DNA of 64,000 bases from the human T2T-CHM13v2.0 reference genome, Homo sapiens. The DNA is taken from NCBI RefSeq assembly GCF_009914755.1, contig NC_060946.1. The stretch is one strand, 5' to 3'. Below, one piece after another: positions 2,660-49,100 of this stretch. The notes beneath the pieces are model-generated. The model ran no database searches. It was not told where the DNA came from and saw only the letters and a list, made by a program, of their open reading frames with translations. Made by a program: the position numbers and the translations under genes. Positions within the stretch are counted from its first letter, which is position 1. Each line of letters opens with the position of its first letter.

Positions 2660-2995
2660 CCTACAATGTGGATGAATCTTGAAAATATTGTGCTACGTGT
2701 TATGTCAGTCATAGCAGCTCACCTATTGTGCAATTCCGTTTATAGGAAATGTCCACAATATGGAAATCTATGCCTATGGGATTGATCGCACTAGGTAGTT
2801 GCTACCTAGGGCTGAGGGTCAGGGAGAGGGTTTGAGACAGAATGAGGAGTGACTAATGTCTACAGGGTCTTTCTCTGGTCGGGGGTGATAAGACGTTTTA
2901 CAATGGATTGCGAATTAAAATTGAATGTGCACAACCACAGGTATACTAAAAGCCACTCAATTCATGACCTTTAATGGGGGAATCTTACGTGGCGT
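2660..2995 (+). mobile_element. Old L1M (L1MB/MC/ME-type) 3' fragment, one per unit
   Basis: tacaatgtggatgaatcttgaaaatattgtgcta...attccgtttataggaaatgtcca...ggagtgact...gtatactaaaagccact matches recalled L1M 3'-end motifs. Subfamily not resolved. Confidence 0.7.
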
Positions 2996-3636: not shown

Positions 3637-6474
3637 TCATAGGGAGATAGTCTCGTGAGGCCTGTGAGTGTCTAGGGTTGTCCTGGGTGCCTGGGGCTGA
3701 CTGTGGCAGAAATCTGGGGAAGGCTGGAGAGAAGCTGGGAGACCCAGGAGAGTCCCTGAAGGCAGGGGTGAAGAGGTGAAAGAAATGGGGGAGGGTTGCA
3801 GTAAGGTCCGTGAGTTTGTAGGTGATTCCTGGGTGCGGGAAGCTGACTCCAGGTGAAATCTGGAGATGGTTGGAGAGTAGCTGAGAGAGACAGAAGAGTC
3901 CCTGAGGGCTGGGGGTGAGAACATGAGGGAGACGGGGGAGTAAGTCAGTGAAATTCGTGAGTTCGGTGGTGTATCGTGGGTGCCTGGAACTGACTCCAGC
4001 TGGAATCTAGAGAAGTTTTGAGAGTAGCTGAAGGAGACACAAGAGTCCCTGTGGGCTGAGGGCAAAGACCTGAGACAGACCAGGGAGGACCTCAGTGAAG
4101 TCTGTGAGTCTGTAGGTGATTCCGGAGTGTGGGAGGCTGACTCCCGCTGAAATCTGGGCGTGGTGGGAGAGTAGGTGGGACAGACAGGAGAGTCCCAGGG
4201 GGCTGGGGGTGACGACGTGAGAGAGACTGGGGAGTAACTCAGTGAAATTGCTGAGTTGGTTGGTGATACCTGGGTGCCTGGAACTGACCCCCGCTGAAAT
4301 CTGGGCATGGTTGGAGAGTAGCTGGGACACACAGGAGAGTCCCTGAGGGCTGGGGGTGAAGACATGAGCGAGACCGGGGAGTAACTGAGTGAAACTGGTG
4401 AGTTTGGTGGTGACTCCGGGGTGCCTGGAACTGACTCCAGCTGAAATGTGGGCGTGGTTGGAGAGTAGCTGGGACAGACAGGAGAGTCCCTGAGGACTGG
4501 TGAAGACATGAGAGAGACTGGAGAGTAATTGAGTGAAATTGGTGAGTTTGGTGGTGATTCCTGGGTGCCTGGAACTGACTCCCGCTGAAGTGTGGGCGTG
4601 GTTGGAGAGTAGCTGGGACACACAGGAGAGTCCCTGAGGGTTGGAGATAAAGACGTGCTAGAGACTGAGGAGTAACTGAGTGAAATTGGTGAGTTTGGTG
4701 GTGATTCCGGGGTGCCTGGAACGGACTCCTGCTGAAATGTGGGCGTGGTTGGAGAGTAGCTGGGACAGACGGGAGAGTCCCTGAGGGATGGTGAAGACAT
4801 GAGAGAGACTGGGGAGTAACGCAGTGAAATTGGTGAGTTTGGTGGTGATTTCTGGGTGCCTGCAACGGACTCCCGCTGAAGTGTGGGCGTGCTTGGAGAG
4901 TAGCTGGGACAGACAGGCGAGTCCCTGAGGGTTGGAGATAAAGACGTGCTAGAGACTGAGGAGTAACTGAGTGAAATTGGTGAGTTTGGTGGTGATTCCG
5001 GGGTGCCTGGAACGGACTCCAGCTGAAATGTGGGCGTGGTTGGAGAGTAGCTGGGACAGACGGGAGAGTCCCTGAGGGATGGTGAAGACATGAGAGAGAC
5101 TGGGGAGTAACGCAGTGAAATTGGTGAGTTTGGTGGTGATTTCTGGGTGCCTGCAACGGACTCCCGCTGAAGTGTGGGCGTGCTTGGAGAGTAGCTGGGA
5201 CAGACAGGCGAGTCCCTGAGGGTTGGAGATAAAGACGTGCTGGAGACTGGGGAGTAACTCAGTGAAAGTGGTGGGCTTGGTGGTGATCCCAGGGTTCCTG
5301 GAACTGACCCGCGCTGAAATGTGGGCGTGGTTGGAGAGTAGCTGGGACAGACTGGAGGGTCCGTAAGGGCTGGGGGTGAAGACGTGAGAGAGACTGGCGA
5401 GGATCTCACTGAGGTCTGTGAGTTTGTAGGTGTTTCTGGGGTGTGGGGTACAGACTCCCGCTGAAATCTGGGCGTAGTTGGAGAGTAGCTGGGACAGACA
5501 GGAGAGTCATGGGTGGCTGGGGGTGAGCTGCTGGATGATGGCAGTAAGAACATATGGTACATTATTGATGAATGAGGTGACTGTGAAGAATCTCCAGAGG
5601 AGGACACGGGAGAACACAATGACATGAGTGACTGTCCTGCTTGGTTAGGAAAGGGAAACGTAAAGTTGTGGAATTCTGTTGATGATGGATGTGAGAGTGG
5701 TGAAGCCCTGCGGGATGATGTAGAGGACTTCCACATCCCTGGTGAGGAGCTGCCCCTTGGGTCTGAGTTTCTGGGAAGGGAGAGGGAGAAGCTGGGTGAG
5801 GCAGGCATGAATCTTGAGGAGTCAGGGCTGGGGGACCGCTCATATTCTCCCGAGACCTGTGAGTCTCTGGGGGACTCCTGGGTGCATGGGGCTGACTCCC
5901 GCAGGAACCTGGGGATGGCTGGAGAGTAACTGGGAGCCACAGGAGGGTCCCTGAGGCCTGGGGGTGAAGAGATGCAAGACACAGGGGTGGAGCAGCGTGA
6001 GGCTCGTGAGTTTGTAGGTGATTCCTGGGTGTGGGGGGCTGACTCCAGCTGAAATCTGGGGTTGTTTGGAGAGTAGCTGGGAGACACAGGAGAACCCCCG
6101 AGAGCTGGGGGTGAGCTGCTGGGTGATGGCAGTAAGAACATGTGGTATATTATTGATGAACGTGGGGACTCTGAGGAGTCCTCAGAGGAGGACACGGCAG
6201 AGCCCAATGGCTTCATTGATTGCCCATCACGGTGAGGACAGGGAAATGGGAGCTTGTGGGATTCTGGTGATGACAGAGGTGAGTGTGGTGAAGCCCTAGG
6301 GGATGGTGAATGGTAGTTCCGGATCCCTGGTGAGGAGCTTCCCCTTAAGCCGGAGTTTCTGAGAGGGGAGAGGGAGAAGCTGGGTGAGGCTCGCATGGAC
6401 CTTGGGGTGTCCGTGCTGGGGGACCGTTCATAAGAAGAGCCAGACAAGACCCTACTGTTCTTAGGTGCAGACAT
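3637..6474 (-). CDS. Ser/Pro-rich repeat protein with Pol II CTD-like YSPTTP motifs, 945-aa frameshift allele (copy 1)
   Basis: 2.8-kb uninterrupted ORF. The ATG has A at -3 (aatcATG) and is the first ATG after the predicted TSS. Internal repeats are 144/147 bp, preserving frame. A G4 run at 3765-3768 shifts the C-terminus. Confidence 0.65.
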   Translation of the reverse strand: MSAPKNSRVLSGSSYERSPSTDTPRSMRASPSFSLSPLRNSGLRGSSSPGIRNYHSPSPRASPHSPLSSPESHKLPFPCPHRDGQSMKPLGSAVSSSEDSSESPRSSIIYHMFLLPSPSSSPPALGGSPVSPSYSPNNPRFQLESAPHTQESPTNSRASRCSTPVSCISSPPGLRDPPVAPSYSPAIPRFLRESAPCTQESPRDSQVSGEYERSPSPDSSRFMPASPSFSLSLPRNSDPRGSSSPGMWKSSTSSRRASPLSHPSSTEFHNFTFPFPNQAGQSLMSLCSPVSSSGDSSQSPHSSIMYHMFLLPSSSSSPPATHDSPVCPSYSPTTPRFQRESVPHTPETPTNSQTSVRSSPVSLTSSPPALTDPPVCPSYSPTTPTFQRGSVPGTLGSPPSPPLSLSYSPVSSTSLSPTLRDSPVCPSYSPSTPTLQRESVAGTQKSPPNSPISLRYSPVSLMSSPSLRDSPVCPSYSPTTPTFQLESVPGTPESPPNSPISLSYSSVSSTSLSPTLRDSPVCPSYSPSTPTLQRESVAGTQKSPPNSPISLRYSPVSLMSSPSLRDSPVCPSYSPTTPTFQQESVPGTPESPPNSPISLSYSSVSSTSLSPTLRDSPVCPSYSPTTPTLQRESVPGTQESPPNSPISLNYSPVSLMSSPVLRDSPVCPSYSPTTPTFQLESVPGTPESPPNSPVSLSYSPVSLMSSPPALRDSPVCPSYSPTMPRFQRGSVPGTQVSPTNSAISLSYSPVSLTSSPPAPWDSPVCPTYSPTTPRFQRESASHTPESPTDSQTSLRSSLVCLRSLPSAHRDSCVSFSYSQNFSRFQLESVPGTHDTPPNSRISLTYSPVSLMFSPPALRDSSVSLSYSPTISRFHLESASRTQESPTNSRTLLQPSPISFTSSPLPSGTLLGLPASLQPSPDFCHSQPQAPRTTLDTHRPHETISL
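3680..5520 (-). repeat. Coding minisatellite: ~13 contiguous 144/147-bp units (48/49 aa) with a 291-bp dimeric higher-order period in the centre; present in every unit
   Basis: tagctgggacagacaggcgagtcc occurs at 4901 and 5192 (291 bp apart). The protein repeats DSPVCPSYSP..P.[FL]Q.ESV.GT..SPPNSPISL.YS.VS. Confidence 0.95.
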
Positions 6475-6485
6475 GATTAGGAAAC

Positions 6486-6671
6486 CTGCAGCTCCCAGGG
6501 GCCCCCACTAATGTTCTAACTCGCAGAAGGAAGGAGTGTGTGTGCGTGTGTGCGTGTGCGTGTGTGTGTGTGTGTGTTTGTGTGTGTGCGGTGTGAGGTA
6601 TGGGCCCCTTAAGGAAATGGAAATCAACCAACCAATGGGACAGACAGACAGACAGACAGACAGAGATTCAC
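6486..6671 (-). other. Putative 186-bp 5'UTR intron
   Basis: Minus-strand donor CAA|GTGAAT at 6671 and acceptor TGCAG|G at 6486, 11 nt before the ATG. It would enclose the (CA)n and (CTGT)n microsatellites. The polypyrimidine tract is weak. Confidence 0.35.
6536..6596 (+). repeat. Interrupted (GT)n microsatellite, one per complete unit
   Basis: gtgtgtgtgcgtgtgtgcgtgtgcgtgtgtgtgtgtgtgtgtttgtgtgtgtgcggtgtg; 2 bp shorter at the ends of units 3 and 7. Confidence 0.95.
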
Positions 6672-6785
6672 TTGCCCAAGTGTTCTGTCCTGTCCTCTGA
6701 ATCCGCTTTCAAGTCGCAAGACGCTGTGAGCTCCAAGTCCACGCAGAGTCCGCCAAACGCTCCGGCCGCTGATCCGCTCCGCGAA

Positions 6786-6856
6786 GATCTGAGTACAGGC
6801 CAGCCAGGGTGGGTTTAAATAGCCTCGGGCGCAGCCTAGCAGCGGAAAGGGCGGAG
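6786..6856 (-). promoter_or_regulatory. Core promoter of the long ORF: GC box, TATA-like box and Inr; predicted TSS 6790 (189 in unit 1; same offset in all units)
   Basis: Minus-strand TATTTAAA at 6821-6814. Inr TCAGATC at 6792-6786 is an exact YYANWYY match with A+1 31 nt from the first T of the TATA. GGGCGGAG GC box at 6849-6856. The region is locally CpG-rich. Confidence 0.6.
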
Positions 6857-7318
6857 CTTCACTCCTCCTTTCCATCAGTCACCCCCAACTTTCCCAGGCT
6901 ACACCTCGTAGGAAACTGTTCTCCTGCTTTGATTTCATGCGCCACCTTTGGGACAATCTAAGAACTTACAGGTTTTCTTGGCCAGATTTATTAGGAATTG
7001 TATGCACTGAAACACTGAAAACCAACTAGTGGTTCTGTGCTTCCCACGTTGTGGTTTTGACACCAGCAGCATCCTTGCCACAATCAAACCCCGGAGATCC
7101 GCAGATCTGTGTTGTAACAAGACCTCCCCCTGACCCTGATGCATGGCAGTTGAAGAAGTCTTTCCGTGTAAGCGAAAAGACTTTGAAGAAAAGGTGGAGA
7201 TATGCGTAGTATAAACATTCTTTGGCTCTGGAACCACGTAGAGACTTGGGAGCCAGTTGGGTGGAGCATTCGTTGGATGAGGGTGCTCGGGTTAGGAATA
7301 TCAAGGTGTTTCTCCAGA

Positions 7319-7329
7319 TAATCCAATCA
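7319..7329 (+). promoter_or_regulatory. DUX4-consensus double-homeodomain site TAATCCAATCA
   Basis: Matches TAAYYYAATCA. Also at 13928, 20527, 27196, 47013, 53606 and 60224; variant TAATGCAATCA at 718, 33801 and 40406. Confidence 0.5.
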
Positions 7330-10245
7330 TCTAATTAAGATTCCAGTTATGCTCATCTGTTTTAAAATTCCGTTTGGGTAAATTCTTTTAGTCAGACTGA
7401 GAATGGCAAAGCCTCAACCCCAATTTCCAGGGAGGGTGGAGAGCCTCAGGTGGAGTTGATCACCAATAGCCTATGGTTTAACCCATCATGCCTATAGAAT
7501 GAGGTCTCCATCAAAACCCAAAAGGACTGGGTTCAGAGAGCTTCTGGATAACACTTCCTGGAAGGTAGTGCACCCCTCCCCGCATGCCGGGCCCCACATT
7601 TATTTCTGAACTTTGTGCAATGTCCGCTAAAATACAACGGCAAATGTAAGTGTTTCCCTGCGTGCTGTGAGCTCTTCCAGCAAATGAATGCAACTAAATC
7701 TGGGAGTGGTGGCAACCTGATTTATAGCCAGTTGCTGAGAAGCACAGGTAAAACAACGTAGGGCTTCCCATTGTTATTGGTGTGGGAGGCCTGTCTGGCG
7801 GGACTCGGCCCTTTGGAATCTAATGCTATGTCCCGGTAGATAGCGTCACCATTGAATTAGAAGACACACATATGTGGAGAATAATCTTTCTGGTCATTTA
7901 CTGCATGTCATATTTACAATATGTAATCAAATTCTTTATCCTGACCTTATGGCACCTGGGTTTAGGACCATGATTTGAACCAAACGTTGGTCTGTCACTT
8001 TCTGAGTTTGAAACTTTATTTTGCCTTTAGCGTTTTGCTATTGCTTTTTCGTTTTCTTTTGTTTCGTTTCGTTTCTAAGTTCTGGGGTATATGTGCAGGA
8101 TGTGCAGATTTGTTACTAAGGTAAACGTGTGCCATGGTGGTTTGCTGCACCTGTCAACCCGTCACCTAGGTATTAAGCCCAGCATGCAGTAGCTGTTTTT
8201 CTTAACGCTCTGCCTCCCGAAAGGCCCCAGTGTGTGTTGTTCCCCTTCCTGTGTCCATGGGATCTCACTTTTCAGCTCCCATTATAAGTGAGAAGGTGGC
8301 GTTTGGTTTTCTTTCCCTGGATTAGTTTGCTGACGATAATGACCACACATCACCACTGTTTTTGTTTTTTAGTATAAAGAGTAGTATTTTATTGAATAAG
8401 ATTTGCTCACAGAAAAATAAGCTTAAATCTACAATGAATGCCAGACCCTACAGCAGAAAGCAATTTTCTCACTTTTCCACACACAATGGTTCCTACTAAG
8501 TGAAAAAAAAGCCATAAAATTTCATTCACAAATGTACTACTCTGTCTCAAAACATCTCACGTAATCATGCACTGTACTAAAGCCATCAGATCAGTTCTTC
8601 AGTCAGGTTAAAGAAGTATCCCTCTAATAACTGACTTTTATAATGCTATCAATATCCACTCCCAATCAGTCTGCCATTGTTAATGGTGTACAGCATTACT
8701 GAATACAACGGAATTGATGACGCCCATATCCACAGACAAACCGTGACTTATGATGGTTTGACTTATGATTTTTCAACGTTATGATGGGTTTATTGGAATA
8801 TTAGATTCGTTTCTGAGTTACACTGGGTTTATGAGTATGCGACCCTACACTCCAGAAACAGCTGTATAAGGAAAAACAGGAGTACCTAATAAAAATATGC
8901 TTAGTGACTTGGGATAAACCAATAGATGTTCACAAGTGATGGAGAGTCGTGAAAGAGAGATAGCGGTAAATAGTTACAATAACACAATTTTCCTGCACCT
9001 GTCGAGGATTTCCCCCAAAAAACGCAGAATGTGGGATGCACCTAAGGCATATGAAAGAGAGAGGGCAGAAGGAGTAAGAGAGAAATAGGAGGAAGGAAGG
9101 AAGGAAGCAAGCAAGGAAGAAAGGAAGGAAGGAAAGAAGGAAGGAAGGACGGAAGGAAGGAAGGAAGGAAGGAAGGAAGGAAGGAAGGAAGGAAAGAAGG
9201 ATGAAAGGAAGGAGAAAACACCGGTGTTACTAAAACCCCCCAAAAAATGGTTTCCCCCTGTGGGTAAGCCTACAATGTGGATGAATCTTGAAAATATTGT
9301 GCTACGTGTTATGTCAGTCATAGCAGCTCACCTATTGTGCAATTCCGTTTATAGGAAATGTCCACAATATGGAAATCTATGCCTATGGGATTGATCGCAC
9401 TAGGTAGTTGCTACCTAGGGCTGAGGGTCAGGGAGAGGGTTTGAGACAGAATGAGGAGTGACTAATGTCTACAGGGTCTTTCTCTGGTCGGGGGTGATAA
9501 GACGTTTTACAATGGATTGCGAATTAAAATTGAATGTGCACAACCACAGGTATACTAAAAGCCACTCAATTCATGACCTTTAATGGGGGAATCTTACGTG
9601 GCGTAGTCTCATGGAGACCACGGCAGACATAGTGAGAGAGAAAAAGGTGAGTAAATATCTGAAACGGAGGCAGAAACAGAGAGAATGAAAAGCCCTGTGA
9701 ATGGAAGGGAGAGCGAAAAGGGAAAATGGTCCTATTTACAAATGACAGATGTGAAACTGGGGTTCACATCAACAGTGTCACTGCCAGGAAGGAGGGTCAT
9801 GCTAGCCATGTCACCGGTAGTGTGGCCCGCAGGGACGCTGACCTGCTGGAGCGTCGTGCCAGCATGGGCTGTGGCAACCACGTGGGCCAGCAGGAGGTTC
9901 CCGCTGCACAGCTGTGGGGTGAGGATAGACTGGGTGGTGATATCGGCCATTACAGGGGCCCTCTTCTGCTGGCAAGAGTGTGACAGTAGCAAGTAGATGG
10001 ACAGGCCTGCGTGTGAGGACGGAATGCAGGAGGGGTTCTTGTGCGCCTGGGTGTGGGGCCCTCACGGGAACCGTGGAGAAATGGCCAGGTAACTGCGTCA
10101 TGTGGGCTAGTAGATTGGCCAGGGCTTCGAACTGAAGGACGATAACGGGGAGTAGCTGTCAGGCCCTGGGAGTGCCTGAGTGTAAGTGGAGATGGGTTTG
10201 GGGTCACTGAGGGATGCGTGGGAGCCATCCCTGTATAGGTACAGG

Positions 10246-13083: not shown

Positions 13084-16000
13084 GATTAGGAAACCTGCAG
13101 CTCCCAGGGGCCCCCACTAATGTTCTAACTCGCAGAAGGAAGGAGTGTGTGTGCGTGTGTGCGTGTGCGTGTGTGTGTGTGTGTGTTTGTGTGTGTGCGG
13201 TGTGAGGTATGGGCCCCTTAAGGAAATGGAAATCAACCAACCAATGGGACAGACAGACAGACAGACAGACAGAGATTCACTTGCCCAAGTGTTCTGTCCT
13301 GTCCTCTGAATCCGCTTTCAAGTCGCAAGACGCTGTGAGCTCCAAGTCCACGCAGAGTCCGCCAAACGCTCCGGCCGCTGATCCGCTCCGCGAAGATCTG
13401 AGTACAGGCCAGCCAGGGTGGGTTTAAATAGCCTCGGGCGCAGCCTAGCAGCGGAAAGGGCGGAGCTTCACTCCTCCTTTCCATCAGTCACCCCCAACTT
13501 TCCCAGGCTACACCTCGTAGGAAACTGTTCTCCTGCTTTGATTTCATGCGCCACCTTTGGGACAATCTAAGAACTTACAGGTTTTCTTGGCCAGATTTAT
13601 TAGGAATTGTATGCACTGAAACACTGAAAACCAACTAGTGGTTCTGTGCTTCCCACGTTGTGGTTTTGACACCAGCAGCATCCTTGCCACAATCAAACCC
13701 CGGAGATCCGCAGATCTGTGTTGTAACAAGACCTCCCCCTGACCCTGATGCATGGCAGTTGAAGAAGTCTTTCCGTGTAAGCGAAAAGACTTTGAAGAAA
13801 AGGTGGAGATATGCGTAGTATAAACATTCTTTGGCTCTGGAACCACGTAGAGACTTGGGAGCCAGTTGGGTGGAGCATTCGTTGGATGAGGGTGCTCGGG
13901 TTAGGAATATCAAGGTGTTTCTCCAGATAATCCAATCATCTAATTAAGATTCCAGTTATGCTCATCTGTTTTAAAATTCCGTTTGGGTAAATTCTTTTAG
14001 TCAGACTGAGAATGGCAAAGCCTCAACCCCAATTTCCAGGGAGGGTGGAGAGCCTCAGGTGGAGTTGATCACCAATAGCCTATGGTTTAACCCATCATGC
14101 CTATAGAATGAGGTCTCCATCAAAACCCAAAAGGACTGGGTTCAGAGAGCTTCTGGATAACACTTCCTGGAAGGTAGTGCACCCCTCCCCGCATGCCGGG
14201 CCCCACATTTATTTCTGAACTTTGTGCAATGTCCGCTAAAATACAACGGCAAATGTAAGTGTTTCCCTGCGTGCTGTGAGCTCTTCCAGCAAATGAATGC
14301 AACTAAATCTGGGAGTGGTGGCAACCTGATTTATAGCCAGTTGCTGAGAAGCACAGGTAAAACAACGTAGGGCTTCCCATTGTTATTGGTGTGGGAGGCC
14401 TGTCTGGCGGGACTCGGCCCTTTGGAATCTAATGCTATGTCCCGGTAGATAGCGTCACCATTGAATTAGAAGACACACATATGTGGAGAATAATCTTTCT
14501 GGTCATTTACTGCATGTCATATTTACAATATGTAATCAAATTCTTTATCCTGACCTTATGGCACCTGGGTTTAGGACCATGATTTGAACCAAACGTTGGT
14601 CTGTCACTTTCTGAGTTTGAAACTTTATTTTGCCTTTAGCGTTTTGCTATTGCTTTTTCGTTTTCTTTTGTTTCGTTTCGTTTCTAAGTTCTGGGGTATA
14701 TGTGCAGGATGTGCAGATTTGTTACTAAGGTAAACGTGTGCCATGGTGGTTTGCTGCACCTGTCAACCCGTCACCTAGGTATTAAGCCCAGCATGCAGTA
14801 GCTGTTTTTCTTAACGCTCTGCCTCCCGAAAGGCCCCAGTGTGTGTTGTTCCCCTTCCTGTGTCCATGGGATCTCACTTTTCAGCTCCCATTATAAGTGA
14901 GAAGGTGGCGTTTGGTTTTCTTTCCCTGGATTAGTTTGCTGACGATAATGACCACACATCACCACTGTTTTTGTTTTTTAGTATAAAGAGTAGTATTTTA
15001 TTGAATAAGATTTGCTCACAGAAAAATAAGCTTAAATCTACAATGAATGCCAGACCCTACAGCAGAAAGCAATTTTCTCACTTTTCCACACACAATGGTT
15101 CCTACTAAGTGAAAAAAAAGCCATAAAATTTCATTCACAAATGTACTACTCTGTCTCAAAACATCTCACGTAATCATGCACTGTACTAAAGCCATCAGAT
15201 CAGTTCTTCAGTCAGGTTAAAGAAGTATCCCTCTAATAACTGACTTTTATAATGCTATCAATATCCACTCCCAATCAGTCTGCCATTGTTAATGGTGTAC
15301 AGCATTACTGAATACAACGGAATTGATGACGCCCATATCCACAGACAAACCGTGACTTATGATGGTTTGACTTATGATTTTTCAACGTTATGATGGGTTT
15401 ATTGGAATATTAGATTCGTTTCTGAGTTACACTGGGTTTATGAGTATGCGACCCTACACTCCAGAAACAGCTGTATAAGGAAAAACAGGAGTACCTAATA
15501 AAAATATGCTTAGTGACTTGGGATAAACCAATAGATGTTCACAAGTGATGGAGAGTCGTGAAAGAGAGATAGCGGTAAATAGTTACAATAACACAATTTT
15601 CCTGCACCTGTCGAGGATTTCCCCCAAAAAACGCAGAATGTGGGATGCACCTAAGGCATATGAAAGAGAGAGGGCAGAAGGAGTAAGAGAGAAATAGGAG
15701 GAAGGAAGGAAGGAAGCAAGCAAGGAAGAAAGGAAGGAAGGAAAGAAGGAAGGAAGGACGGAAGGAAGGAAGGAAGGAAGGAAGGAAGGAAGGAAAGAAG
15801 GATGAAAGGAAGGAGAAAACACCGGTGTTACTAAAACCCCCCAAAAAATGGTTTCCCCCTGTGGGTAAGCCTACAATGTGGATGAATCTTGAAAATATTG
15901 TGCTACGTGTTATGTCAGTCATAGCAGCTCACCTATTGTGCAATTCCGTTTATAGGAAATGTCCACAATATGGAAATCTATGCATATGGGATTGATCGCA

Positions 16001-19684: not shown

Positions 19685-22600
19685 GATTAGGAAACCTGCA
19701 GCTCCCAGGGGCCCCCACTAATGTTCTAACTCGCAGAAGGAAGGAGTGTGTGTGCGTGTGTGCGTGTGCGTGTGTGTGTGTGTGTTTGTGTGTGTGCGGT
19801 GTGAGGTATGGGCCCCTTAAGGAAATGGAAATCAACCAACCAATGGGACAGACAGACAGACAGACAGACAGAGATTCACTTGCCCAAGTGTTCTGTCCTG
19901 TCCTCTGAATCCGCTTTCAAGTCGCAAGACGCTGTGAGCTCCAAGTCCACGCAGAGTCCGCCAAACGCTGCGGCCGCTGATCCGCTCCGCGAAGATCTGA
20001 GTACAGGCCAGCCAGGGTGGGTTTAGATAGCCTCGGGCGCAGCCTAGCAGCGGAAAGGGCGGAGCTTCACTCCTCCTTTCCATCAGTCACCCCCAACTTT
20101 CCCAGGCTACACCTCGTAGGAAACTGTTCTCCTGCTTTGATTTCATGCGCCACCTTTGGGACAATCTAAGAACTTACAGGTTTTCTTGGCCAGATTTATT
20201 AGGAATTGTATGCACTGAAACACTGAAAACCAACTAGTGGTTCTGTGCTTCCCACGTTGTGGTTTTGACACCAGCAGCATCCTTGCCACAATCAAACCCC
20301 GGAGATCCGCAGATCTGTGTTGTAACAAGACCTCCCCCTGACCCTGAAGCGTGGCAGTTGAAGAAGTCTTTCCGTGTAAGCGAAAAGACTTTGAAGAAAA
20401 GGTGGAGATATGCGTTGTATAAACATTCTTTTGCTCTGGAACCACGTAGAGACTTGGGAGCCAGTTGGGTGGAGCATTCGTTGGATGAGGGTGCTCGGGT
20501 TAGGAATATCAAGGTGTGGCTCCAGATAATCCAATCATCTAATTAAGATTCCAGTTATGCTCATCTGTTTTAAAATTCCGTTTGGGTAAATTCTTTTAGT
20601 CAGACTGAGAATGGCAAAGCCTCAAGCCCAATTTCCAGGGAGGGTGGAGAGCCTCAGGTGGAGTTGATCACCAATACCCTATGGTTTAACCCATCATGCC
20701 TATAGAATGAGGTCTCCATCAAAACCCAAAAGGACTGGGTTCAGAGAGCTTCTGGATAACACTTCCTGGAAGGTAGTGCGCCCCTCCCCGCATGGCGGGC
20801 CCCACATTTATTTCTGAACTTTGTGCAATGTCCGCTAAAATACAACGGCAAATGTAAGTGTTTCCCTGCGTGCTGTGAGCTCTTCCAGCAAATGAATGCA
20901 ACTAAATCTGGAAGTGGTGGCAACCTGATTTATAGCCAGTTGCTGAGAAGTACAGGTAAAACAACGTAGGGCTTCCCATTGTTATTGGTGTGGGAGGCCT
21001 GTCTGGCGGGACTCGGCCCTTTGGAATCTAATGCTATGTCCCGGTAGATAGCGTCACCATTGAATTAGAAGACACACATATGTGGAGAATAATCTTTCTG
21101 GTCATTTACTGCATGTCATATTTACAATATGTAATCAAATTCTTTATCCTGACCTTATGGCACCTGGGTTTAGGACCATGATTTGAACCAAACGTTGGTC
21201 TGTCACTTTCTGAGTTTGAAACTTTATTTTGCCTTTAGCGTTTTGCTATTGCTTTTTCGTTTTCTTTTGTTTCGTTTCGTTTCTAAGTTCTGGGGTATAT
21301 GTGCAGGATGTGCAGATTTGTTACTAAGGTAAACGTGTGCCATGGTGGTTTGCTGCACCTGTCAACCCGTCACCTAGGTATTAAGCCCAGCATGCAGTAG
21401 CTGTTTTTCTTAACGCTCTGCCTCCCGAAAGGCCCCAGTGTGTGTTGTTCCCCTTCCTGTGTCCATGGGATCTCACTTTTCAGCTCCCATTATAAGTGAG
21501 AAGGTGGCGTTTGGTTTTCTTTCCCTGGATTAGTTTGCTGACGATAATGACCACACATCACCACTGTTTTTGTTTTTTAGTATAAAGAGTAGTATTTTAT
21601 TGAATAAGATTTGCTCACAGAAAAATAAGCTTAAATCTACAATGAATGCCAGACCCTACAGCAGAAAGCAATTTTCTCACTTTTCCACACACAATGGTTC
21701 CTACTAAGTGAAAAAAAAGCCATAAAATTTCATTCACAAATGTACTACTCTGTCTCAGAACATCTCACGTAATCATGCACTGTACTAAAGCCATCAGATC
21801 AGTTCTTCAGTCAGGTTAAAGAAGTATCCCTCTAATAACTGACTTTTATAATGCTATCAATATCCACTCCCAATCAGTCTGCCATTGTTAATGGTGTACA
21901 GCATTACTGAATACAACGGAATTGATGACGCCCATATCCACGGACAAACCGTGACTTATGATGGTTTGACTTATGATTTTTCAACGTTATGATGGGTTTA
22001 TTGGAATATTAGATTCGTTTCTGAGTTACACTGGGTTTATGAGTATGCGACCCTACACTCCAGAAACAGCTGTATAAGGAAAAACAGGAGTACCTAATAA
22101 AAATATGCTTAGTGACTTGGGATAAACCAATAGATGTTCACAAGTGATGGAGAGTCGTGAAAGAGAGATAGCGGTAAATAGTTACAATAACACAATTTTC
22201 CTGCACCTGTCGAGGATTTCCCCCAAAAAACGCAGAATGTGGGATGCACCTAAGGCATATGAAAGAGAGAGGGCAGAAGGAGTAAGAGAGAAATAGGAGG
22301 AAGGAAGGAAGGAAGGAAGCAAGGAAGGAAAGAAGGAAGGAAGGACGGAAGGAAGGAAGGAAGGAAGGAAGGAAGGAAGGAAGGAAGGAAGGAAGGAAGG
22401 AAAGAAGGAAGGAAGGACGGAAGGAAGGAAGGAAGGAAGGAAGGAAGGAAGGAAGGAAGGAAAGAAGGATGAAAGGAAGGAGAAAACACCGGTGTTACTA
22501 AAACCCCCCCAAAAATGGTTTCCCCCTGTGGGTAAGCCTACAATGTGGATGAATCTTGAAAATATTGTGCTACGTGTTATGTCAGTCATAGCAGCTCACC

Positions 22601-42897: not shown

Positions 42898-45800
42898 TCA
42901 CCGGTAGTGTGGCCCGCAGGGACGCCGACCTGCTGGAGCGTCGTGCCAGCATGGGCTGTGGCAACCACGTGGGCCAGCAGGAGGTTCCCGCTGCACAGCT
43001 GTGGGGTGAGGATAGACTGGGTGGTGATATCGGCCATTACAGGGGCCTCTTCTGCTGGCAAGAGTGTGACAGTAGCAAGTAGATGGACAGACCTGCGTGT
43101 GAGGACGGAATGCAGGAGGGGTTCTTGTGCGCCTGGGTGTGGGGCCCTCACGGGAACCGTGGAGAAATGGCCAGGTAACTGCGTCATGTGGGCTAGTAGA
43201 TTGGCCAGGGCTTCGAACTGAAGGACGATAACGGGGAGTAGCTGTCAGGCCCTGGGAGTGCCTGAGTGTAAGTGGAGATGGGTTTGGGGTCACTGAGGGA
43301 TGCGTGGGAGCCATCCCTGTATAGGTACAGGTCATAGGGAGATAGTCTCGTGAGGCCTGTGAGTGTCTAGGGTTGTCCTGGGTGCCTGGGGCTGACTGTG
43401 GCAGAAATCTGGGGAAGGCTGGAGAGAAGCTGGGAGACCCAGGAGAGTCCCTGAAGGCAGGGGGTGAAGAGGTGAAAGAAATGGGGGAGGGTTGCAGTAA
43501 GGTCCGTGAGTTTGTAGGTGATTCCTGGGTGCGGGAAGCTGACTCCAGGTGAAATCTGGAGATGGTTGGAGAGTAGCTGAGAGAGACAGAAGAGTCCCTG
43601 AGGGCTGGGGGTGAGAACATGAGGGAGACGGGGGAGTAAGTCAGTGAAATTCGTGAGTTCGGTGGTGTATCGTGGGTGCCTGGAACTGACTCCAGCTGGA
43701 ATCTAGAGAAGTTTTGAGAGTAGCTGAAGGAGACACAAGAGTCCCTGTGGGCTGAGGGCAAAGACCTGAGACAGACCAGGGAGGACCTCAGTGAAGTCTG
43801 TGAGTCTGTAGGTGATTCCGGAGTGTGGGAGGCTGACTCCCGCTGAAATCTGGGCGTGGTGGGAGAGTAGGTGGGACAGACAGGAGAGTCCCAGGGGGCT
43901 GGGGGTGACGACGTGAGAGAGACTGGGGAGTAACTCAGTGAAATTGCTGAGTTGGTTGGTGATACCTGGGTGCCTGGAACTGACCCCCGCTGAAATCTGG
44001 GCATGGTTGGAGAGTAGCTGGGACACACAGGAGAGTCCCTGAGGGCTGGGGGTGAAGACATGAGCGAGACCGGGGAGTAACTGAGTGAAACTGGTGAGTT
44101 TGGTGGTGACTCCGGGGTGCCTGGAACTGACTCCAGCTGAAATGTGGGCGTGGTTGGAGAGTAGCTGGGACAGACAGGAGAGTCCCTGAGGACTGGTGAA
44201 GACATGAGAGAGACTGGAGAGTAATTGAGTGAAATTGGTGAGTTTGGTGGTGATTCCTGGGTGCCTGGAACTGACTCCCGCTGAAGTGTGGGCGTGGTTG
44301 GAGAGTAGCTGGGACACACAGGAGAGTCCCTGAGGGTTGGAGATAAAGACGTGCTAGAGACTGAGGAGTAACTGAGTGAAATTGGTGAGTTTGGTGGTGA
44401 TTCCGGGGTGCCTGGAACGGACTCCTGCTGAAATGTGGGCGTGGTTGGAGAGTAGCTGGGACAGACGGGAGAGTCCCTGAGGGATGGTGAAGACATGAGA
44501 GAGACTGGGGAGTAACGCAGTGAAATTGGTGAGTTTGGTGGTGATTTCTGGGTGCCTGCAACGGACTCCCGCTGAAGTGTGGGCGTGCTTGGAGAGTAGC
44601 TGGGACAGACAGGCGAGTCCCTGAGGGTTGGAGATAAAGACGTGCTAGAGACTGAGGAGTAACTGAGTGAAATTGGTGAGTTTGGTGGTGATTCCGGGGT
44701 GCCTGGAACGGACTCCAGCTGAAATGTGGGCGTGGTTGGAGAGTAGCTGGGACAGACGGGAGAGTCCCTGAGGGATGGTGAAGACATGAGAGAGACTGGG
44801 GAGTAACGCAGTGAAATTGGTGAGTTTGGTGGTGATTTCTGGGTGCCTGCAACGGACTCCCGCTGAAGTGTGGGCGTGCTTGGAGAGTAGCTGGGACAGA
44901 CAGGCGAGTCCCTGAGGGTTGGAGATAAAGACGTGCTGGAGACTGGGGAGTAACTCAGTGAAAGTGGTGGGCTTGGTGGTGATCCCAGGGTTCCTGGAAC
45001 TGACCCGCGCTGAAATGTGGGCGTGGTTGGAGAGTAGCTGGGACAGACTGGAGGGTCCGTAAGGGCTGGGGGTGAAGACGTGAGAGAGACTGGCGAGGAT
45101 CTCACTGAGGTCTGTGAGTTTGTAGGTGTTTCTGGGGTGTGGGGTACAGACTCCCGCTGAAATCTGGGCGTAGTTGAAGAGTAGCTGGGACAGACAGGAG
45201 AGTCATGGGTGGCTGGGGGTGAGCTGCTGGATGATGGCAGTAAGAACATATGGTACATTATTGATGAATGAGGTGACTGTGAAGAATCTCCAGAGGAGGA
45301 CACGGGAGAACACAATGACATGAGTGACTGTCCTGCTTGGTTAGGAAAGGGAAACGTAAAGTTGTGGAATTCTGTTGATGATGGATGTGAGAGTGGTGAA
45401 GCCCTGCGGGATGATGTAGAGGACTTCCACATCCCTGGTGAGGAGCTGCCCCTTTGGTCTGAGTTTCTGGGAGGGGAGAGGGAGAAGCTGGGTGAGGCAG
45501 GCATGAATCTTGAGGAGTCAGGGCTGGGGGACCGCTCATATTCTCCCGAGACCTGTGAGTCTCTGGGGGACTCCTGGGTGCATGGGGCTGACTCCCGCAG
45601 GAACCTGGGGATGGCTGGAGAGTAACTGGGAGCCACAGGAGGGTCCCTGAGGCCTGGGGGTGAAGAGATGCAAGACACAGGGGTGGAGCAGCGTGAGGCT
45701 CGTGAGTTTGTAGGTGATTCCTGGGTGTGGGGGGCTGACTCCAGCTGAAATCTGGGGTTGTTTGGAGAGTAGCTGGGAGACACAGGAGACCCCCCGAGAG

Positions 45801-46170
45801 CTGGGGGTGAGCTGCTGGGTGATGGCAGTAAGAACATGTGGTATATTATTGATGAACGTGGGGACTCTGAGGAGTCCTCAGAGGAGGACACGGCAGAGCC
45901 CAATGGCTTCATTGATTGCCCATCACGGTGAGGACAGGGAAATGGGAGCTTGTGGGATTCTGGTGATGACAGAGGTGAGTGTGGTGAAGCCCTAGGGGAT
46001 GGTGAATGGTAGTTCCGGATCCCTGGTGAGGAGCTTCCCCTTAAGCCGGAGTTTCTGAGAGGGGAGAGGGAGAAGCTGGGTGAGGCTCGCATGGACCTTG
46101 GGGTGTCCGTGCTGGGGGACCGTTCATAAGAAGAGCCAGACAAGACCCTACTGTTCTTAGGTGCAGACAT
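42898..46170 (-). CDS. Same protein, 1090-aa allele (copy 7)
   Basis: ORF track; G5/C2 allele. Confidence 0.65.
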   Translation of the reverse strand: MSAPKNSRVLSGSSYERSPSTDTPRSMRASPSFSLSPLRNSGLRGSSSPGIRNYHSPSPRASPHSPLSSPESHKLPFPCPHRDGQSMKPLGSAVSSSEDSSESPRSSIIYHMFLLPSPSSSPPALGGSPVSPSYSPNNPRFQLESAPHTQESPTNSRASRCSTPVSCISSPPGLRDPPVAPSYSPAIPRFLRESAPCTQESPRDSQVSGEYERSPSPDSSRFMPASPSFSLSPPRNSDQRGSSSPGMWKSSTSSRRASPLSHPSSTEFHNFTFPFPNQAGQSLMSLCSPVSSSGDSSQSPHSSIMYHMFLLPSSSSSPPATHDSPVCPSYSSTTPRFQRESVPHTPETPTNSQTSVRSSPVSLTSSPPALTDPPVCPSYSPTTPTFQRGSVPGTLGSPPSPPLSLSYSPVSSTSLSPTLRDSPVCPSYSPSTPTLQRESVAGTQKSPPNSPISLRYSPVSLMSSPSLRDSPVCPSYSPTTPTFQLESVPGTPESPPNSPISLSYSSVSSTSLSPTLRDSPVCPSYSPSTPTLQRESVAGTQKSPPNSPISLRYSPVSLMSSPSLRDSPVCPSYSPTTPTFQQESVPGTPESPPNSPISLSYSSVSSTSLSPTLRDSPVCPSYSPTTPTLQRESVPGTQESPPNSPISLNYSPVSLMSSPVLRDSPVCPSYSPTTPTFQLESVPGTPESPPNSPVSLSYSPVSLMSSPPALRDSPVCPSYSPTMPRFQRGSVPGTQVSPTNSAISLSYSPVSLTSSPPAPWDSPVCPTYSPTTPRFQRESASHTPESPTDSQTSLRSSLVCLRSLPSAHRDSCVSFSYSQNFSRFQLESVPGTHDTPPNSRISLTYSPVSLMFSPPALRDSSVSLSYSPTISRFHLESASRTQESPTNSRTLLQPSPISFTSSPPAFRDSPGSPSFSPAFPRFLPQSAPGTQDNPRHSQASRDYLPMTCTYTGMAPTHPSVTPNPSPLTLRHSQGLTATPRYRPSVRSPGQSTSPHDAVTWPFLHGSREGPTPRRTRTPPAFRPHTQVCPSTCYCHTLASRRGPCNGRYHHPVYPHPTAVQREPPAGPRGCHSPCWHDAPAGRRPCGPHYR

Positions 46171-49100
46171 GATTAGGAAACCTGCAGCTCCCAGGGGCCC
46201 CCACTAATGTTCTAACTCGCAGAAGGAAGGAGTGTGTGTGCGTGTGTGCGTGTGCGTGTGTGTGTGTGTGTTTGTGTGTGTGCGGTGTGAGGTATGGGCC
46301 CCTTAAGGAAATGGAAATCAACCAACCAATGGGACAGACAGACAGACAGACAGACAGAGATTCACTTGCCCAAGTGTTCTGTCCTGTCCTCTGAATCCGC
46401 TTTCAAGTCGCAAGACGCTGTGAGCTCCAAGTCCACGCAGAGTCCGCCAAACGCTCCGGCCGCTGATCCGCTCCGCGAAGATCTGAGTACAGGCCAGCCA
46501 GGGTGGGTTTAAATAGCCTCGGGCGCAGCCTAGCAGCGGAAAGGGCGGAGCTTCACTCCTCCTTTCCATCAGTCACCCCCAACTTTCCCAGGCTACACCT
46601 CGTAGGAAACTGTTCTCCTGCTTTGATTTCATGCGCCACCTTTGGGACAATCTAAGAACTTACAGGTTTTCTTGGCCAGATTTATTAGGAATTGTATGCA
46701 CTGAAACACTGAAAACCAACTAGTGGTTCTGTGCTTCCCACGTTGTGGTTTTGACACCAGCAGCATCCTTGCCACAATCAAACCCCGGAGATCCGCAGAT
46801 CTGTGTTGTAACAAGACCTCCCCCTGACCCTGAAGCATGGCAGTTGAAGAAGTCTTTCCGTGTAAGCGAAAAGACTTTGAAGAAAAGGTGGAGATATGCG
46901 TTGTATAAACATTCTTTGGCTCTGGAACCACGTAGAGACTTGGGAGCCAGTTGGGTGGAGCATTCGTTGGATGAGGGTGCTCGGGTTAGGAATATCAAGG
47001 TGTTTCTCCAGATAATCCAATCATCTAATTAAGATTCCAGTTATGCTCATCTGTTTTAAAATTCCGTTTGGGTAAATTCTTTTAGTCAGACTGAGAATGG
47101 CAAAGCCTCAAGCCCAATTTCCAGGGAGGGTGGAGAGCCTCAGGTGGAGTTGATCACCAATAGCCTATGGTTTAACCCATCATGCCTATAGAATGAGGTC
47201 TCCATCAAAACCCAAAAGGACTGGGTTCAGAGAGCTTCTGGATAACACTTCCTGGAAGGTAGTGCACCCCTCCCCGCATGCCGGGCCCCACATTTATTTC
47301 TGAACCTTGTGCAATGTCCGCTAAAATACAACGGCAAATGTAAGTGTTTCCCTGCGTGCTGTGAGCTCTTCCAGCAAATGAATGCAACTAAATCTGGGAG
47401 TGGTGGCAACCTGATTTATAGCCAGTTGCTGAGAAGCACAGGTAAAACAACGTAGGGCTTCCCATTGTTATTGGTGTGGGAGGCCTGTCTGGCGGGACTC
47501 GGCCCTTTGGAATCTAATGCTATGTCCCGGTAGATAGCGTCACCATTGAATTAGAAGACACACATATGTGGAGAATAATCTTTCTGGTCATTTACTGCAT
47601 GTCATATTTACAATATGTAATCAAATTCTTTATCCTGACCTTATGGCACCTGGGTTTAGGACCATGATTTGAACCAAACGTTGGTCTGTCACTTTCTGAG
47701 TTTGAAACTTTATTTTGCCTTTAGCGTTTTGCTATTGCTTTTTCGTTTTCTTTTGTTTCGTTTCGTTTCTAAGTTCTGGGGTATATGTGCAGGATGTGCA
47801 GATTTGTTACTAAGGTAAACGTGTGCCATGGTGGTTTGCTGCACCTGTCAACCCGTCACCTAGGTATTAAGCCCAGCATGCAGTAGCTGTTTTTCTTAAC
47901 GCTCTGCCTCCCGAAAGGCCCCAGGGTGTGTTGTTCCCCTTCCTGTGTCCATGGGATCTCACTTTTCAGCTCCCATTATAAGTGAGAAGGTGGCGTTTGG
48001 TTTTCTTTCCCTGGATTAGTTTGCTGACGATAATGACCACACATCACCACTGTTTTTGTTTTTTAGTATAAAGAGTAGTATTTTATTGAATAAGATTTGC
48101 TCACAGAAAAATAAGCTTAAATCTACAATGAATGCCAGACCCTACAGCAGAAAGCAATTTTCTCACTTTTCCACACACAATGGTTCCTACTAAGTGAAAA
48201 AAAAGCCATAAAATTTCATTCACAAATGTACTACTCTGTCTCAAAACATCTCACGTAATCATGCACTGTACTAAAGCCATCAGATCAGTTCTTCAGTCAG
48301 GTTAAAGAAGTATCCCTCTAATAACTGACTTTTATAATGCTATCAATATCCACTCCCAATCAGTCTGCCATTGTTAATGGTGTACAGCATTACTGAATAC
48401 AACGGAATTGATGACGCCCATATCCACAGACAAACCGTGACTTATGATGGTTTGATTTATGATTTTTCAACGTTATGATGGGTTTATTGGAATATTAGAT
48501 TCGTTTCTGAGTTACACTGGGTTTATGAGTATGCGACCCTACACTCCAGAAACAACTGTATAAGGAAAAACAGGTGTACCTAATAAAAATATGCTTAGTG
48601 ACTTGGGATAAACCAATAGATGTTCACAAGTGATGGAGAGCCGTGAAAGAGAGATAGCGGTAAATAGTTACAATAACACAATTTTCCTGCACCTGTCGAG
48701 GATTTCCCCCAAAAAACGCAGAATGTGGGATGCACCTAAGGCATATGAAAGAGAGAGGGCAGAAGGAGTAAGAGAGAAATAGGAGGAAGGAAGGAAGGAA
48801 GCAAGGAAGAAAGGAAGGAAGGAAAGAAGGAAGGAAGGACGGAAGGAAGGAAGGAAGGAAGGAAGGAAGGAAAGAAGGATGAAAGGAAGGAGAAAACACC
48901 GGTGTTACTAAAACCCCCCAAAAAATGGTTTCCCCCTGTGGGTAAGCCTACAATGTGGATGAATCTTGAAAATATTGTGCTACGTGTTATGTCAGTCATA
49001 GCAGCTCACCTATTGTGCAATTCCGTTTATAGGAAATGTCCACAATATGGAAATCTATGCATATGGGATTGATCGCACTAGGTAGTTGCTACCTAGGGCT

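What the first reader, a model, noticed from the sequence alone, without database searches (positions are those of the whole stretch)
7319..7340. DUX4-consensus site ~530 bp upstream of each gene copy: candidate zygotic-genome-activation array
Seen: TAATCCAATCA followed by a TAATTA homeobox palindrome, upstream of the predicted minus-strand TSS. Established: DUX4 binds TAAYYYAATCA, and many of its cleavage-stage targets are multicopy clusters (PRAMEF, TRIM43/49, MBD3L, ZSCAN4, RFPL4). TAATCC is also the K50 paired-like homeodomain motif. Inference: the CTD-like protein could be induced at the 4-8-cell stage, when Pol II is globally engaged, and ectopically in FSHD muscle or DUX4-positive tumours. 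A single 11-mer can arise by chance, and the ten copies are not independent evidence.
Basis: partly seen in the sequence, partly recalled or inferred. Interest (0 to 1): 0.72.

Follow-up and report, generated by a model that had tools for sequence, protein, structure and literature searches.

The report
DUX4-bound hidden gene in ACRO repeats
A repeat filed as satellite DNA, present about 200 times in the human genome and mostly on the acrocentric short arms, holds an unannotated ~1,000-codon reading frame with relatives in other primates and a DUX4 site that published data show bound at sister copies, so it is likely an overlooked protein-coding gene family that DUX4 probably helps switch on in the early embryo.

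Summary
The motif is real: TAATCCAATCA at 7319-7329, exact in 7 of 10 units, about 530 bp upstream of a predicted minus-strand TATA/Inr start. The window is the known ACRO composite array (147-bp ACRO1 satellite). Published DUX4 ChIP-seq peaks (Young 2013) match this site in sister copies by spacing: chr2 5,905 vs 5,905 bp, chr4 12,434 vs 12,435 bp. The same paper shows ACRO1 RNA up 15.8-fold with DUX4, and another shows a 4-cell peak. DUX4 induction of ACRO1 and its CTD-like codons are already in print. Not found in print: the site and promoter, and that each unit carries a 945-1090-codon ORF. That ORF is shared from the same Met with a marmoset protein and with more distant non-human proteins, and frameshifts are depleted in it. 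Against: the site is no more conserved than its flanks, is missing in some intact-ORF copies and in an old chr8 paralogue, per-peak induction was not significant, dN/dS is 0.5 to above 1, and no protein has been shown. Verdict: likely an overlooked multicopy DUX4-responsive cleavage-stage gene family; protein function is inferred only.

The parts
7319..7329 (+). DUX4 consensus site, CC flavour (TAATCCAATCA); also contains the K50 homeodomain hexamer TAATCC
   Evidence: CC flavour binds DUX4 and activates a reporter in Zhang 2016; ChIP peaks at homologous sites on chr2 and chr4
7332..7337 (.). TAATTA palindrome; probably not a DUX4 element
   Evidence: the Pitx1-type TAATTA sequence gave no reporter activity in Zhang 2016; altered in 5 of 19 ACRO paralogues
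7288..7365 (.). About 78-bp segment holding the site; present in all 19 ACRO paralogues examined, absent from the old chr8 paralogue (boundaries approximate)
7398..7874 (+). LTR fragment shared with the chr8 paralogue (77% identity); taken as the MER21B part of ACRO (name from the paper's list of ACRO parts plus recall); the DUX4 site lies outside it
   Evidence: the matched peaks are labelled 'Unique' in Young 2013 Table S1
6849..6856 (+). GC box (GGGCGGAG), variable among paralogues
6814..6821 (-). TATA-like box TATTTAAA at -31; intact in 7 of 10 units, changed in the units with motifs at 20527, 53606, 60224
6786..6792 (-). Initiator-like TCAGATC, predicted start site 6790; invariant in 20 aligned rows and kept in the chr8 paralogue
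   Evidence: prediction only
6676..6790 (-). Predicted non-coding exon 1 (115 nt, no ATG)
6486..6675 (-). Predicted 190-nt intron with (AC)n tract; donor is GC here and GT in older paralogues including chr8; acceptor CAG with a weak pyrimidine tract; no ATG
3637..6474 (-). ORF of the flagged unit, 945 aa, Ser/Pro-rich with 20 YSP; tail out of frame
3681..5526 (-). ACRO1 satellite array, 12.6 copies of 147/144 bp = 49/48-aa modules in the ORF frame
   Evidence: Boots 2020
3765..3768 (-). Run one base shorter than in the other units; shifts the frame in 4 of 9 complete ORFs and loses the Cys/His C-terminal block
2970..2975 (-). ATTAAA, candidate poly(A) signal
   Evidence: prediction only
42898..46170 (-). 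Full-length 1090-aa ORF; this unit also has an exact DUX4 site (47013) and an intact TATA box
47013..47023 (+). DUX4 site of that unit; further exact sites at 13928, 20527, 27196, 53606, 60224; one-mismatch variants at 718, 33801, 40406

Best explanation
Each 6.6-kb ACRO unit is likely one copy of an unannotated protein-coding gene, and the 11-mer at 7319 is a DUX4 site, bound at sister copies in published ChIP data, that probably helps switch on the gene's predicted TATA/Inr promoter in 4-cell embryos and DUX4-expressing cells. Steps: (1) the motif and the ACRO identity are shown. (2) DUX4 occupancy is shown for homologous sites on chr2 and chr4 and inferred for these chr22 copies (about 0.85). 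(3) DUX4 would recruit p300/CBP (established DUX4 biology) and fire the promoter 530 bp away; induction is shown for the family's RNA, while dependence on this site is inferred (about 0.6). (4) The transcript would have a short non-coding exon, a 190-nt intron and one long coding exon ending near ATTAAA (predicted). (5) It would encode a ~1,000-aa disordered Ser/Pro protein with a conserved IIYHMF motif, 49-aa YSP modules and a Cys/His C-terminal block (coding inferred, about 0.7). (6) Its most likely action is as a phospho-acceptor scaffold or decoy for proline-directed kinases and CTD-reading factors during genome activation (inferred from composition only, about 0.25).
For: ChIP: hg19 chr2 motifs 133,041,212 and 133,047,117 (heights 141, 121) are 5,905 bp apart, as are T2T ACRO sites 132,719,987 and 132,725,892. 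hg19 chr4 motifs 49,296,723 and 49,309,157 (heights 62, 102) are 12,434 bp apart against 12,435 for two T2T sites that match the window's 28-mer exactly. A fifth peak at chr2:162,137,203 (height 151) fits by a recalled offset only. Peaks cover about 0.8% of the genome. RNA: ACRO1 15.8x with DUX4; 4-cell peak; rise in early embryo with hypomethylation in sperm. Genome-wide 178 CC and 15 TC sites carry the ACRO flank, against 6 G variants (4 of the 121 listed lie outside known ACRO loci). Coding: 9 of 9 complete units have 945-1090-aa ORFs; 115 of 130 top-scoring units listed have a stop-free frame of 890+ codons (counted by hand, biased to close copies); marmoset protein of 832 aa from the same Met, 71% N-terminal and 72% C-terminal identity; P0088 keeps both ends and the Cys/His block and has no human match above 49%; among ATG-bearing paralogues 19 frameshifting indels in 1.9 kb upstream against 1 in 1.5 kb of ORF, p=1.5e-4.
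Against: The 11-mer is not conserved above its flanks (5 variable states against a mean of 4.0). It is lost in the distal chr15/21 subfamily, which has intact 1377-aa ORFs, and absent from the chr8 paralogue. Only 2 of 6 chr4 sites had a matching peak in the range searched, and a motif-less peak of height 207 lies nearby, so pile-up from collapsed copies may inflate hg19 peaks. Per-peak induction was not significant (log2FC 2.62, Inf, 3.21; FDR 0.62-0.97; two 'not expressed'), and only about 0.8% of single-motif peaks gave induced transcripts. The ACRO1 row itself has 0 peaks and 1.1x ChIP reads, though the site lies outside that satellite. dN/dS against the window copy is 0.47-0.88 for cleanly aligned older paralogues (below 1 at p<=0.05 for 2 of 4 tested) and 0.6-3.7 for young ones. 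The indel test ignores that upstream DNA is more AT-rich and leaves out the start-lost clade. Sense ACRO1 RNA blocks Pol II elongation in cis in HeLa reporters. No peptide or ribosome evidence was seen. Papio and Piliocolobus models are short, and one stretch of the marmoset model reads like the shifted frame.
Confidence: 0.62

Rival explanations
1. DUX4 binds the site incidentally. ACRO is switched on at the 4-cell stage by its TATA/GC promoter on hypomethylated chromatin, or indirectly through other DUX4 targets, and the motif was amplified as a passenger.
For: Site not conserved above flanks; intact-ORF copies lack it; most single-motif peaks do not induce transcripts; per-peak fold changes not significant; ACRO1 is hypomethylated in sperm.
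Against: Family RNA rises 15.8x on DUX4 expression in myoblasts; the bound site is 530 bp from the predicted start; the one change fixed in the amplified copies moved between two consensus flavours, TC to CC.
Confidence: 0.18
2. ACRO is a decaying or non-coding array descended from an old gene. DUX4 induces its RNA, which acts as a Pol II-binding, self-limiting transcript, and the open frames persist through recent amplification and concerted evolution.
For: Boots 2020 shows ACRO1 RNA binds Pol II and stops elongation in cis; dN/dS near 1 in young copies and many broken paralogues; no annotation in the window; no protein evidence.
Against: Frame kept from the same Met in marmoset and in a non-human 355-aa protein with the same C-terminal block; frameshift depletion; module lengths of 147 and 144 bp keep frame; diverged subfamilies are separately intact.
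Confidence: 0.14
3. The working element is the TAATCC hexamer, read by K50 paired-like homeodomain factors of the cleavage embryo, with DUX4 secondary.
For: TAATCC is inside the site; K50 preference for TAATCC is recalled knowledge.
Against: Older paralogues carry TAATTC, not TAATCC, yet are DUX4-bound; the hexamer is very common.
Confidence: 0.06

Closest known systems
ACRO composite / ACRO1 satellite (ACRE of Boots 2020, PMC7714431; ACRO_Comp of Hoyt, 10.1101/2021.07.12.451456; 10.64898/2025.12.22.696095)
   Same: This is that element: 147-bp monomers in a ~6-kb unit with LTR and L1 pieces on acrocentric short arms; CTD-like translation of the monomer, DUX4 activation and the 4-cell peak are reported.
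   Different: The passages read treat it as non-coding and primate-specific. None gives a promoter, a DUX4 site, an ATG-to-stop ORF across the unit, or non-human protein homologues.
Multicopy DUX4 target gene clusters (PRAMEF, TRIM43/49, ZSCAN4, MBD3L, RFPL4A)
   Same: Tandem multicopy genes with a DUX4 site near the start, induced by DUX4 and expressed around genome activation.
   Different: About 200 copies on several chromosomes, no annotation, no Pfam domain, a single motif, site absent in some copies, protein not yet shown.
D4Z4/DUX4 and other gene-bearing macrosatellites
   Same: An ORF embedded in each unit of a homogenised macrosatellite, with broken copies dispersed on acrocentric arms.
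   Different: No homeodomain; the ORF itself contains an inner coding satellite.
RPB1 (POLR2A) C-terminal domain; NCBI/UniRef 'RPB1-like' models in marmoset, Papio, Piliocolobus
   Same: Ser/Pro-rich repeats with YSPT; the 49-aa module can be read as 7 degenerate heptads; the primate models are orthologues or paralogues of this ORF.
   Different: 0 perfect YSPTSPS, no polymerase domains; the automatic name reflects composition only.

Membership tests
ACRO composite repeat | 147-bp monomer array inside a ~6-kb higher-order unit | tested here: met
   against the description
ACRO composite repeat | Tandem arrays on acrocentric short arms, chr3 and chr4 | tested here: met
Direct DUX4 target gene | TAAYYYAATCA site near the start | tested here: met
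   the start site is predicted
Direct DUX4 target gene | DUX4 ChIP peak on the site | tested here: met
   Met for 4 sister sites pinned by spacing and 1 by recalled offset; no peak data were seen for the chr22 copies themselves
Direct DUX4 target gene | Transcript induced by DUX4 | tested here: inconclusive
   Family RNA 15.8x, but per-peak changes not significant and strand and 5' end unknown
Direct DUX4 target gene | Cleavage-stage expression | tested here: met
   From papers only: passages
Direct DUX4 target gene | Site required for induction | not testable with these tools
   Needs reporter or copy-resolved RNA
Protein-coding gene | ORF conserved across species with frameshift depletion | tested here: met
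Protein-coding gene | dN/dS clearly below 1 | tested here: inconclusive
   0.47-0.88 in older paralogues, 0.6-3.7 in young ones
Protein-coding gene | Translation shown | not testable with these tools
   No Ribo-seq or mass spectrometry at hand
RPB1 CTD | Tandem consensus YSPTSPS heptads | tested here: not met
   0 perfect heptads, 19 YSP, 8 YSP[TS][TS]P in 1090 aa
RPB1 CTD | Joined to polymerase large-subunit domains | tested here: not met
   No Pfam match for 6 of 6 proteins; no PDB match for P0018

The most novel reading that the evidence does not exclude
ACRO, the most acrocentric-specific repeat in great apes, is an old mammalian protein-coding gene amplified to roughly 200 copies in humans. 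DUX4 turns it on through this site at the 4-cell stage, and in FSHD muscle and DUX4-positive tumours, to make a ~1,000-aa CTD-like phosphoprotein that tunes Pol II or nucleolar assembly at genome activation. It would be among the highest-copy human protein-coding genes and is absent from the annotation of this window.
Probability: 0.3. Interest if true: 0.93.

Novelty: new member of a known kind. Interest (0 to 1): 0.74.

Why it matters
It gives a concrete mechanism for a known but unexplained result (ACRO1 RNA appears with DUX4 and at the 4-cell stage) and recasts a 'satellite' as a probable gene family hidden on the acrocentric short arms. If translated, it adds a high-copy, copy-number-variable protein to human genome activation and a candidate FSHD marker or tumour antigen that standard pipelines discard as repeat. 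Natural copies with and without the site, TATA box or intact tail make it directly testable with existing data.

Tried and rejected
Motif as part of the LTR: rejected, it lies outside the LTR fragment and matched peaks are labelled 'Unique'. Motif under selection: not supported. Ten copies as independent evidence: rejected. Window shuffles overstate significance for the same reason. GGAA microsatellite driven by EWS:FLI1: ACRO1 was not substantially changed in EWS:FLI1-expressing HeLa cells. Known domains or folds: none; no structure was predicted because the protein looks disordered (Atlas pLDDT 0.40). The module indel tally was confounded by one mis-split module and is not used. dN/dS rows for L035, L037 and L043 are misaligned past deletions and are not used. 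chr8 as negative control: no peak row at hg19 chr8:48.99-49.01 Mb, but the offset is recalled, so this is weak. A full census of units and a check of the chr2:162 Mb offset from neighbouring peaks were not done. Hendrickson 2017 and De Iaco 2017 were not readable and are cited second-hand. Searches for a named gene or ORF in print found none; one search was swamped by unrelated papers; most subscription journals are not covered.

Full report
Observation. TAATCCAATCA is at 7319-7329 on the + strand, with TAATTA at 7332-7337. The window is a tandem array of ~6.6-kb units. The motif is exact in 7 of 10 units and reads TAATGCAATCA in 3. The genome has 25,274 TAAYYYAATCA sites in 3.117 Gb, so one within 530 bp of a given start has a 0.4% chance and one per unit 5%. 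The copies count as one event. It is the only site within one mismatch in the unit.

Identity. Each unit holds 12.6 copies of a 147-bp monomer. This is the ACRO composite. Boots 2020 (PMC7714431; parts 1-3 of 5 read) describes the 147-bp ACRO1 monomer in a 6-kb unit, notes 23 of 49 identities to the Pol II CTD, treats it as a Pol II-binding RNA that blocks elongation in cis, and found no non-primate homologue. A preprint (10.64898/2025.12.22.696095; passages) calls ACRO the repeat most specific to ape acrocentrics. Hoyt (passages) places it on 12 chromosomes. DUX4 activation of ACRO1 is stated in Vuoristo 2022, a 2024 review and a 2025 preprint (passages); the primary paper, Hendrickson 2017, was not available. 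ACRO1 RNA peaks at the 4-cell stage (PMC6545021, passages) and rises in the early embryo, with hypomethylation in sperm (PMC5832720, passage).

Gene anatomy, predicted from sequence. On the minus strand: GC box 6849-6856, TATTTAAA 6821-6814, Inr-like TCAGATC with start 6790, a 115-nt ATG-free exon, a 190-nt ATG-free intron, then ATG 6474 with A at -3. The donor is GC in the amplified copies and GT in older ones. All 9 complete units have long ORFs: 945 aa (4 units, including the flagged one, with a one-base-shorter run and shifted tail), 1044 aa (1) and 1090 aa (4). The other five frames of one 1090-aa copy hold 12-100 stops. TATA is changed in 3 of 10 units. The protein is 24% Ser and 18% Pro with 91 SP, 19 YSP and no perfect YSPTSPS, and has no Pfam match.

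DUX4 binding. Zhang 2016 (PMC4730607, passages) shows that all four flavours, including this CC flavour, bind DUX4 and drive a reporter, and that the TAATTA type does not. Young 2013 (PMC3836709; passages, Table S2 rows, and searched parts of Table S1, which is held only to about chr13) lists hg19 DUX4 peaks from uniquely mapped reads. Two consecutive chr2 peaks have best motifs 5,905 bp apart, exactly the spacing of the two T2T chr2 ACRO sites. Two chr4 peaks are 12,434 bp apart; two T2T chr4 sites identical to the window's 28-mer are 12,435 bp apart, and no other chr4 pair fits. A fifth peak at chr2:162,137,203 fits the T2T site at 161,739,000 by an offset I recalled and did not verify. All five are labelled 'Unique'. 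Against: 4 of 6 chr4 sites had no matching peak in hg19 49.24-49.33 Mb, a motif-less peak lies beside them, and the five peaks' RNA changes were not significant. Table S2 gives ACRO1 0 peaks of 61 instances, 1.1x ChIP reads and 15.8x RNA; the site is outside the ACRO1 monomers, so the first two numbers do not test it. Only about 0.8% of single-motif peaks gave induced transcripts.

History of the site. Genome-wide, 178 CC, 15 TC and 6 GC sites carry the ACRO 5' flank; 78 CC sites were not listed, 4 of the 121 listed lie outside known ACRO loci, and the 5 ACRO G variants are all in this chr22 array. Among 20 loci picked for divergence or location, older paralogues (86-93% identical) carry TAATTCAATCA and younger ones TAATCCAATCA; 15 of 19 ACRO loci keep a consensus site, the distal chr15/21 subfamily and one chr14 copy do not. 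A single-copy paralogue on chr8 (about 74% identity, ORF 152 aa) keeps Inr, donor, acceptor and ATG but lacks the ~78 bp holding the site. The 11-mer is as variable as its flanks. So the site is old within ACRO and bound, but shows no sign of selection.

Coding evidence. A marmoset protein (P0004, 832 aa, named RPB1 by UniRef) starts at the same Met and matches 71% over the first 330 aa and 72% over the C-terminal block; Papio and Piliocolobus models are shorter. A profile search returned 72 proteins, many apparently human-derived fragments, and some distant ones. P0088 (355 aa) has the N-terminal IIYHMF motif, one YSPT module and the CPSTCYCH block (44% C-terminal identity, E 4e-26), and its best match in this genome is 48-49%, so it is not human; its species is not given. 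115 of the 130 top-scoring units have stop-free frames of 890+ codons (hand count; the other 15 are shorter or hold a stop). Separate subfamilies have 896-1377-aa ORFs; 11 of the 20 fetched loci are under 700 aa, and 4 of those lack the ATG. In 17 loci compared, leaving out the start-lost clade and one misaligned stretch, there are 19 frameshifting indels in 1.9 kb upstream and 1 in 1.5 kb of ORF (p=1.5e-4, not corrected for base composition). dN/dS is only 0.47-0.88 in cleanly aligned older paralogues and 0.6-3.7 in young ones, as for a fast-evolving disordered protein or a weakly constrained one.

Mechanism. Most likely DUX4, present briefly after fertilisation, binds the site and opens the promoter on hypomethylated arrays, giving a burst of mRNA from many copies; self-attenuation by the nascent RNA may limit it. 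Binding at sister sites and family-level induction are shown in print; dependence on the site, the transcript structure, translation and a CTD-decoy role are inferred, in falling order of confidence (0.6, predicted, 0.7, 0.25).

Novelty. The repeat, its DUX4 response and its CTD-like codons are known. My searches found no paper giving the site, the promoter or the ORF as a gene; automatic 'RPB1-like' models exist for other primates. Unseen supplements (Boots SI, preprint supplements, Hendrickson 2017) could already show some of this. I file it as a probable new member of the multicopy DUX4-target class, interest 0.74.

Noticed in passing
protein P0111 (598 aa): A non-human protein joins an ACRO-family N-terminus (38% to P0018 over 186 aligned positions) and its own YSP repeats to a C-terminus that looks like the DUX4/DUXC activation domain (resemblance recalled); that tail matches five human loci on chr1, 13, 14, 15, 21 at 44-49%. 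It may be a natural fusion or adjacent genes read through.
   Followed up: partly
L035 (chr8:48,456,000-48,465,900): Single-copy old paralogue, about 74% identical, without the N-terminal duplication or the DUX4 segment, with about 2 kb more upstream DNA; a candidate relic of the ancestral locus.
   Followed up: partly
6675-6674 and paralogues: The predicted splice donor changed from GT to GC in the amplified copies.
   Followed up: no
L050, L051 (distal chr21 and chr15): Subfamily with 1377-aa ORFs and 28-29 YSP that has lost the DUX4 site; a natural control.
   Followed up: partly
2489-2604, 9090-9213 and each unit: (GGAA)n tract about 2.3 kb upstream of each predicted start; ACRO1 RNA is raised in Ewing sarcoma plasma vesicles but not by EWS:FLI1 in HeLa.
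   Followed up: partly
P0009, P0020: Human ACRO-like sequence (93-100% identity) is deposited as Plasmodium ovale proteins, one named RPB1; likely human contamination.
   Followed up: no
L037 (chr2:161.74 Mb): Copy with the ACRO1 array deleted in frame, leaving a 358-aa ORF with both conserved ends, close to the layout of P0088.
   Followed up: no
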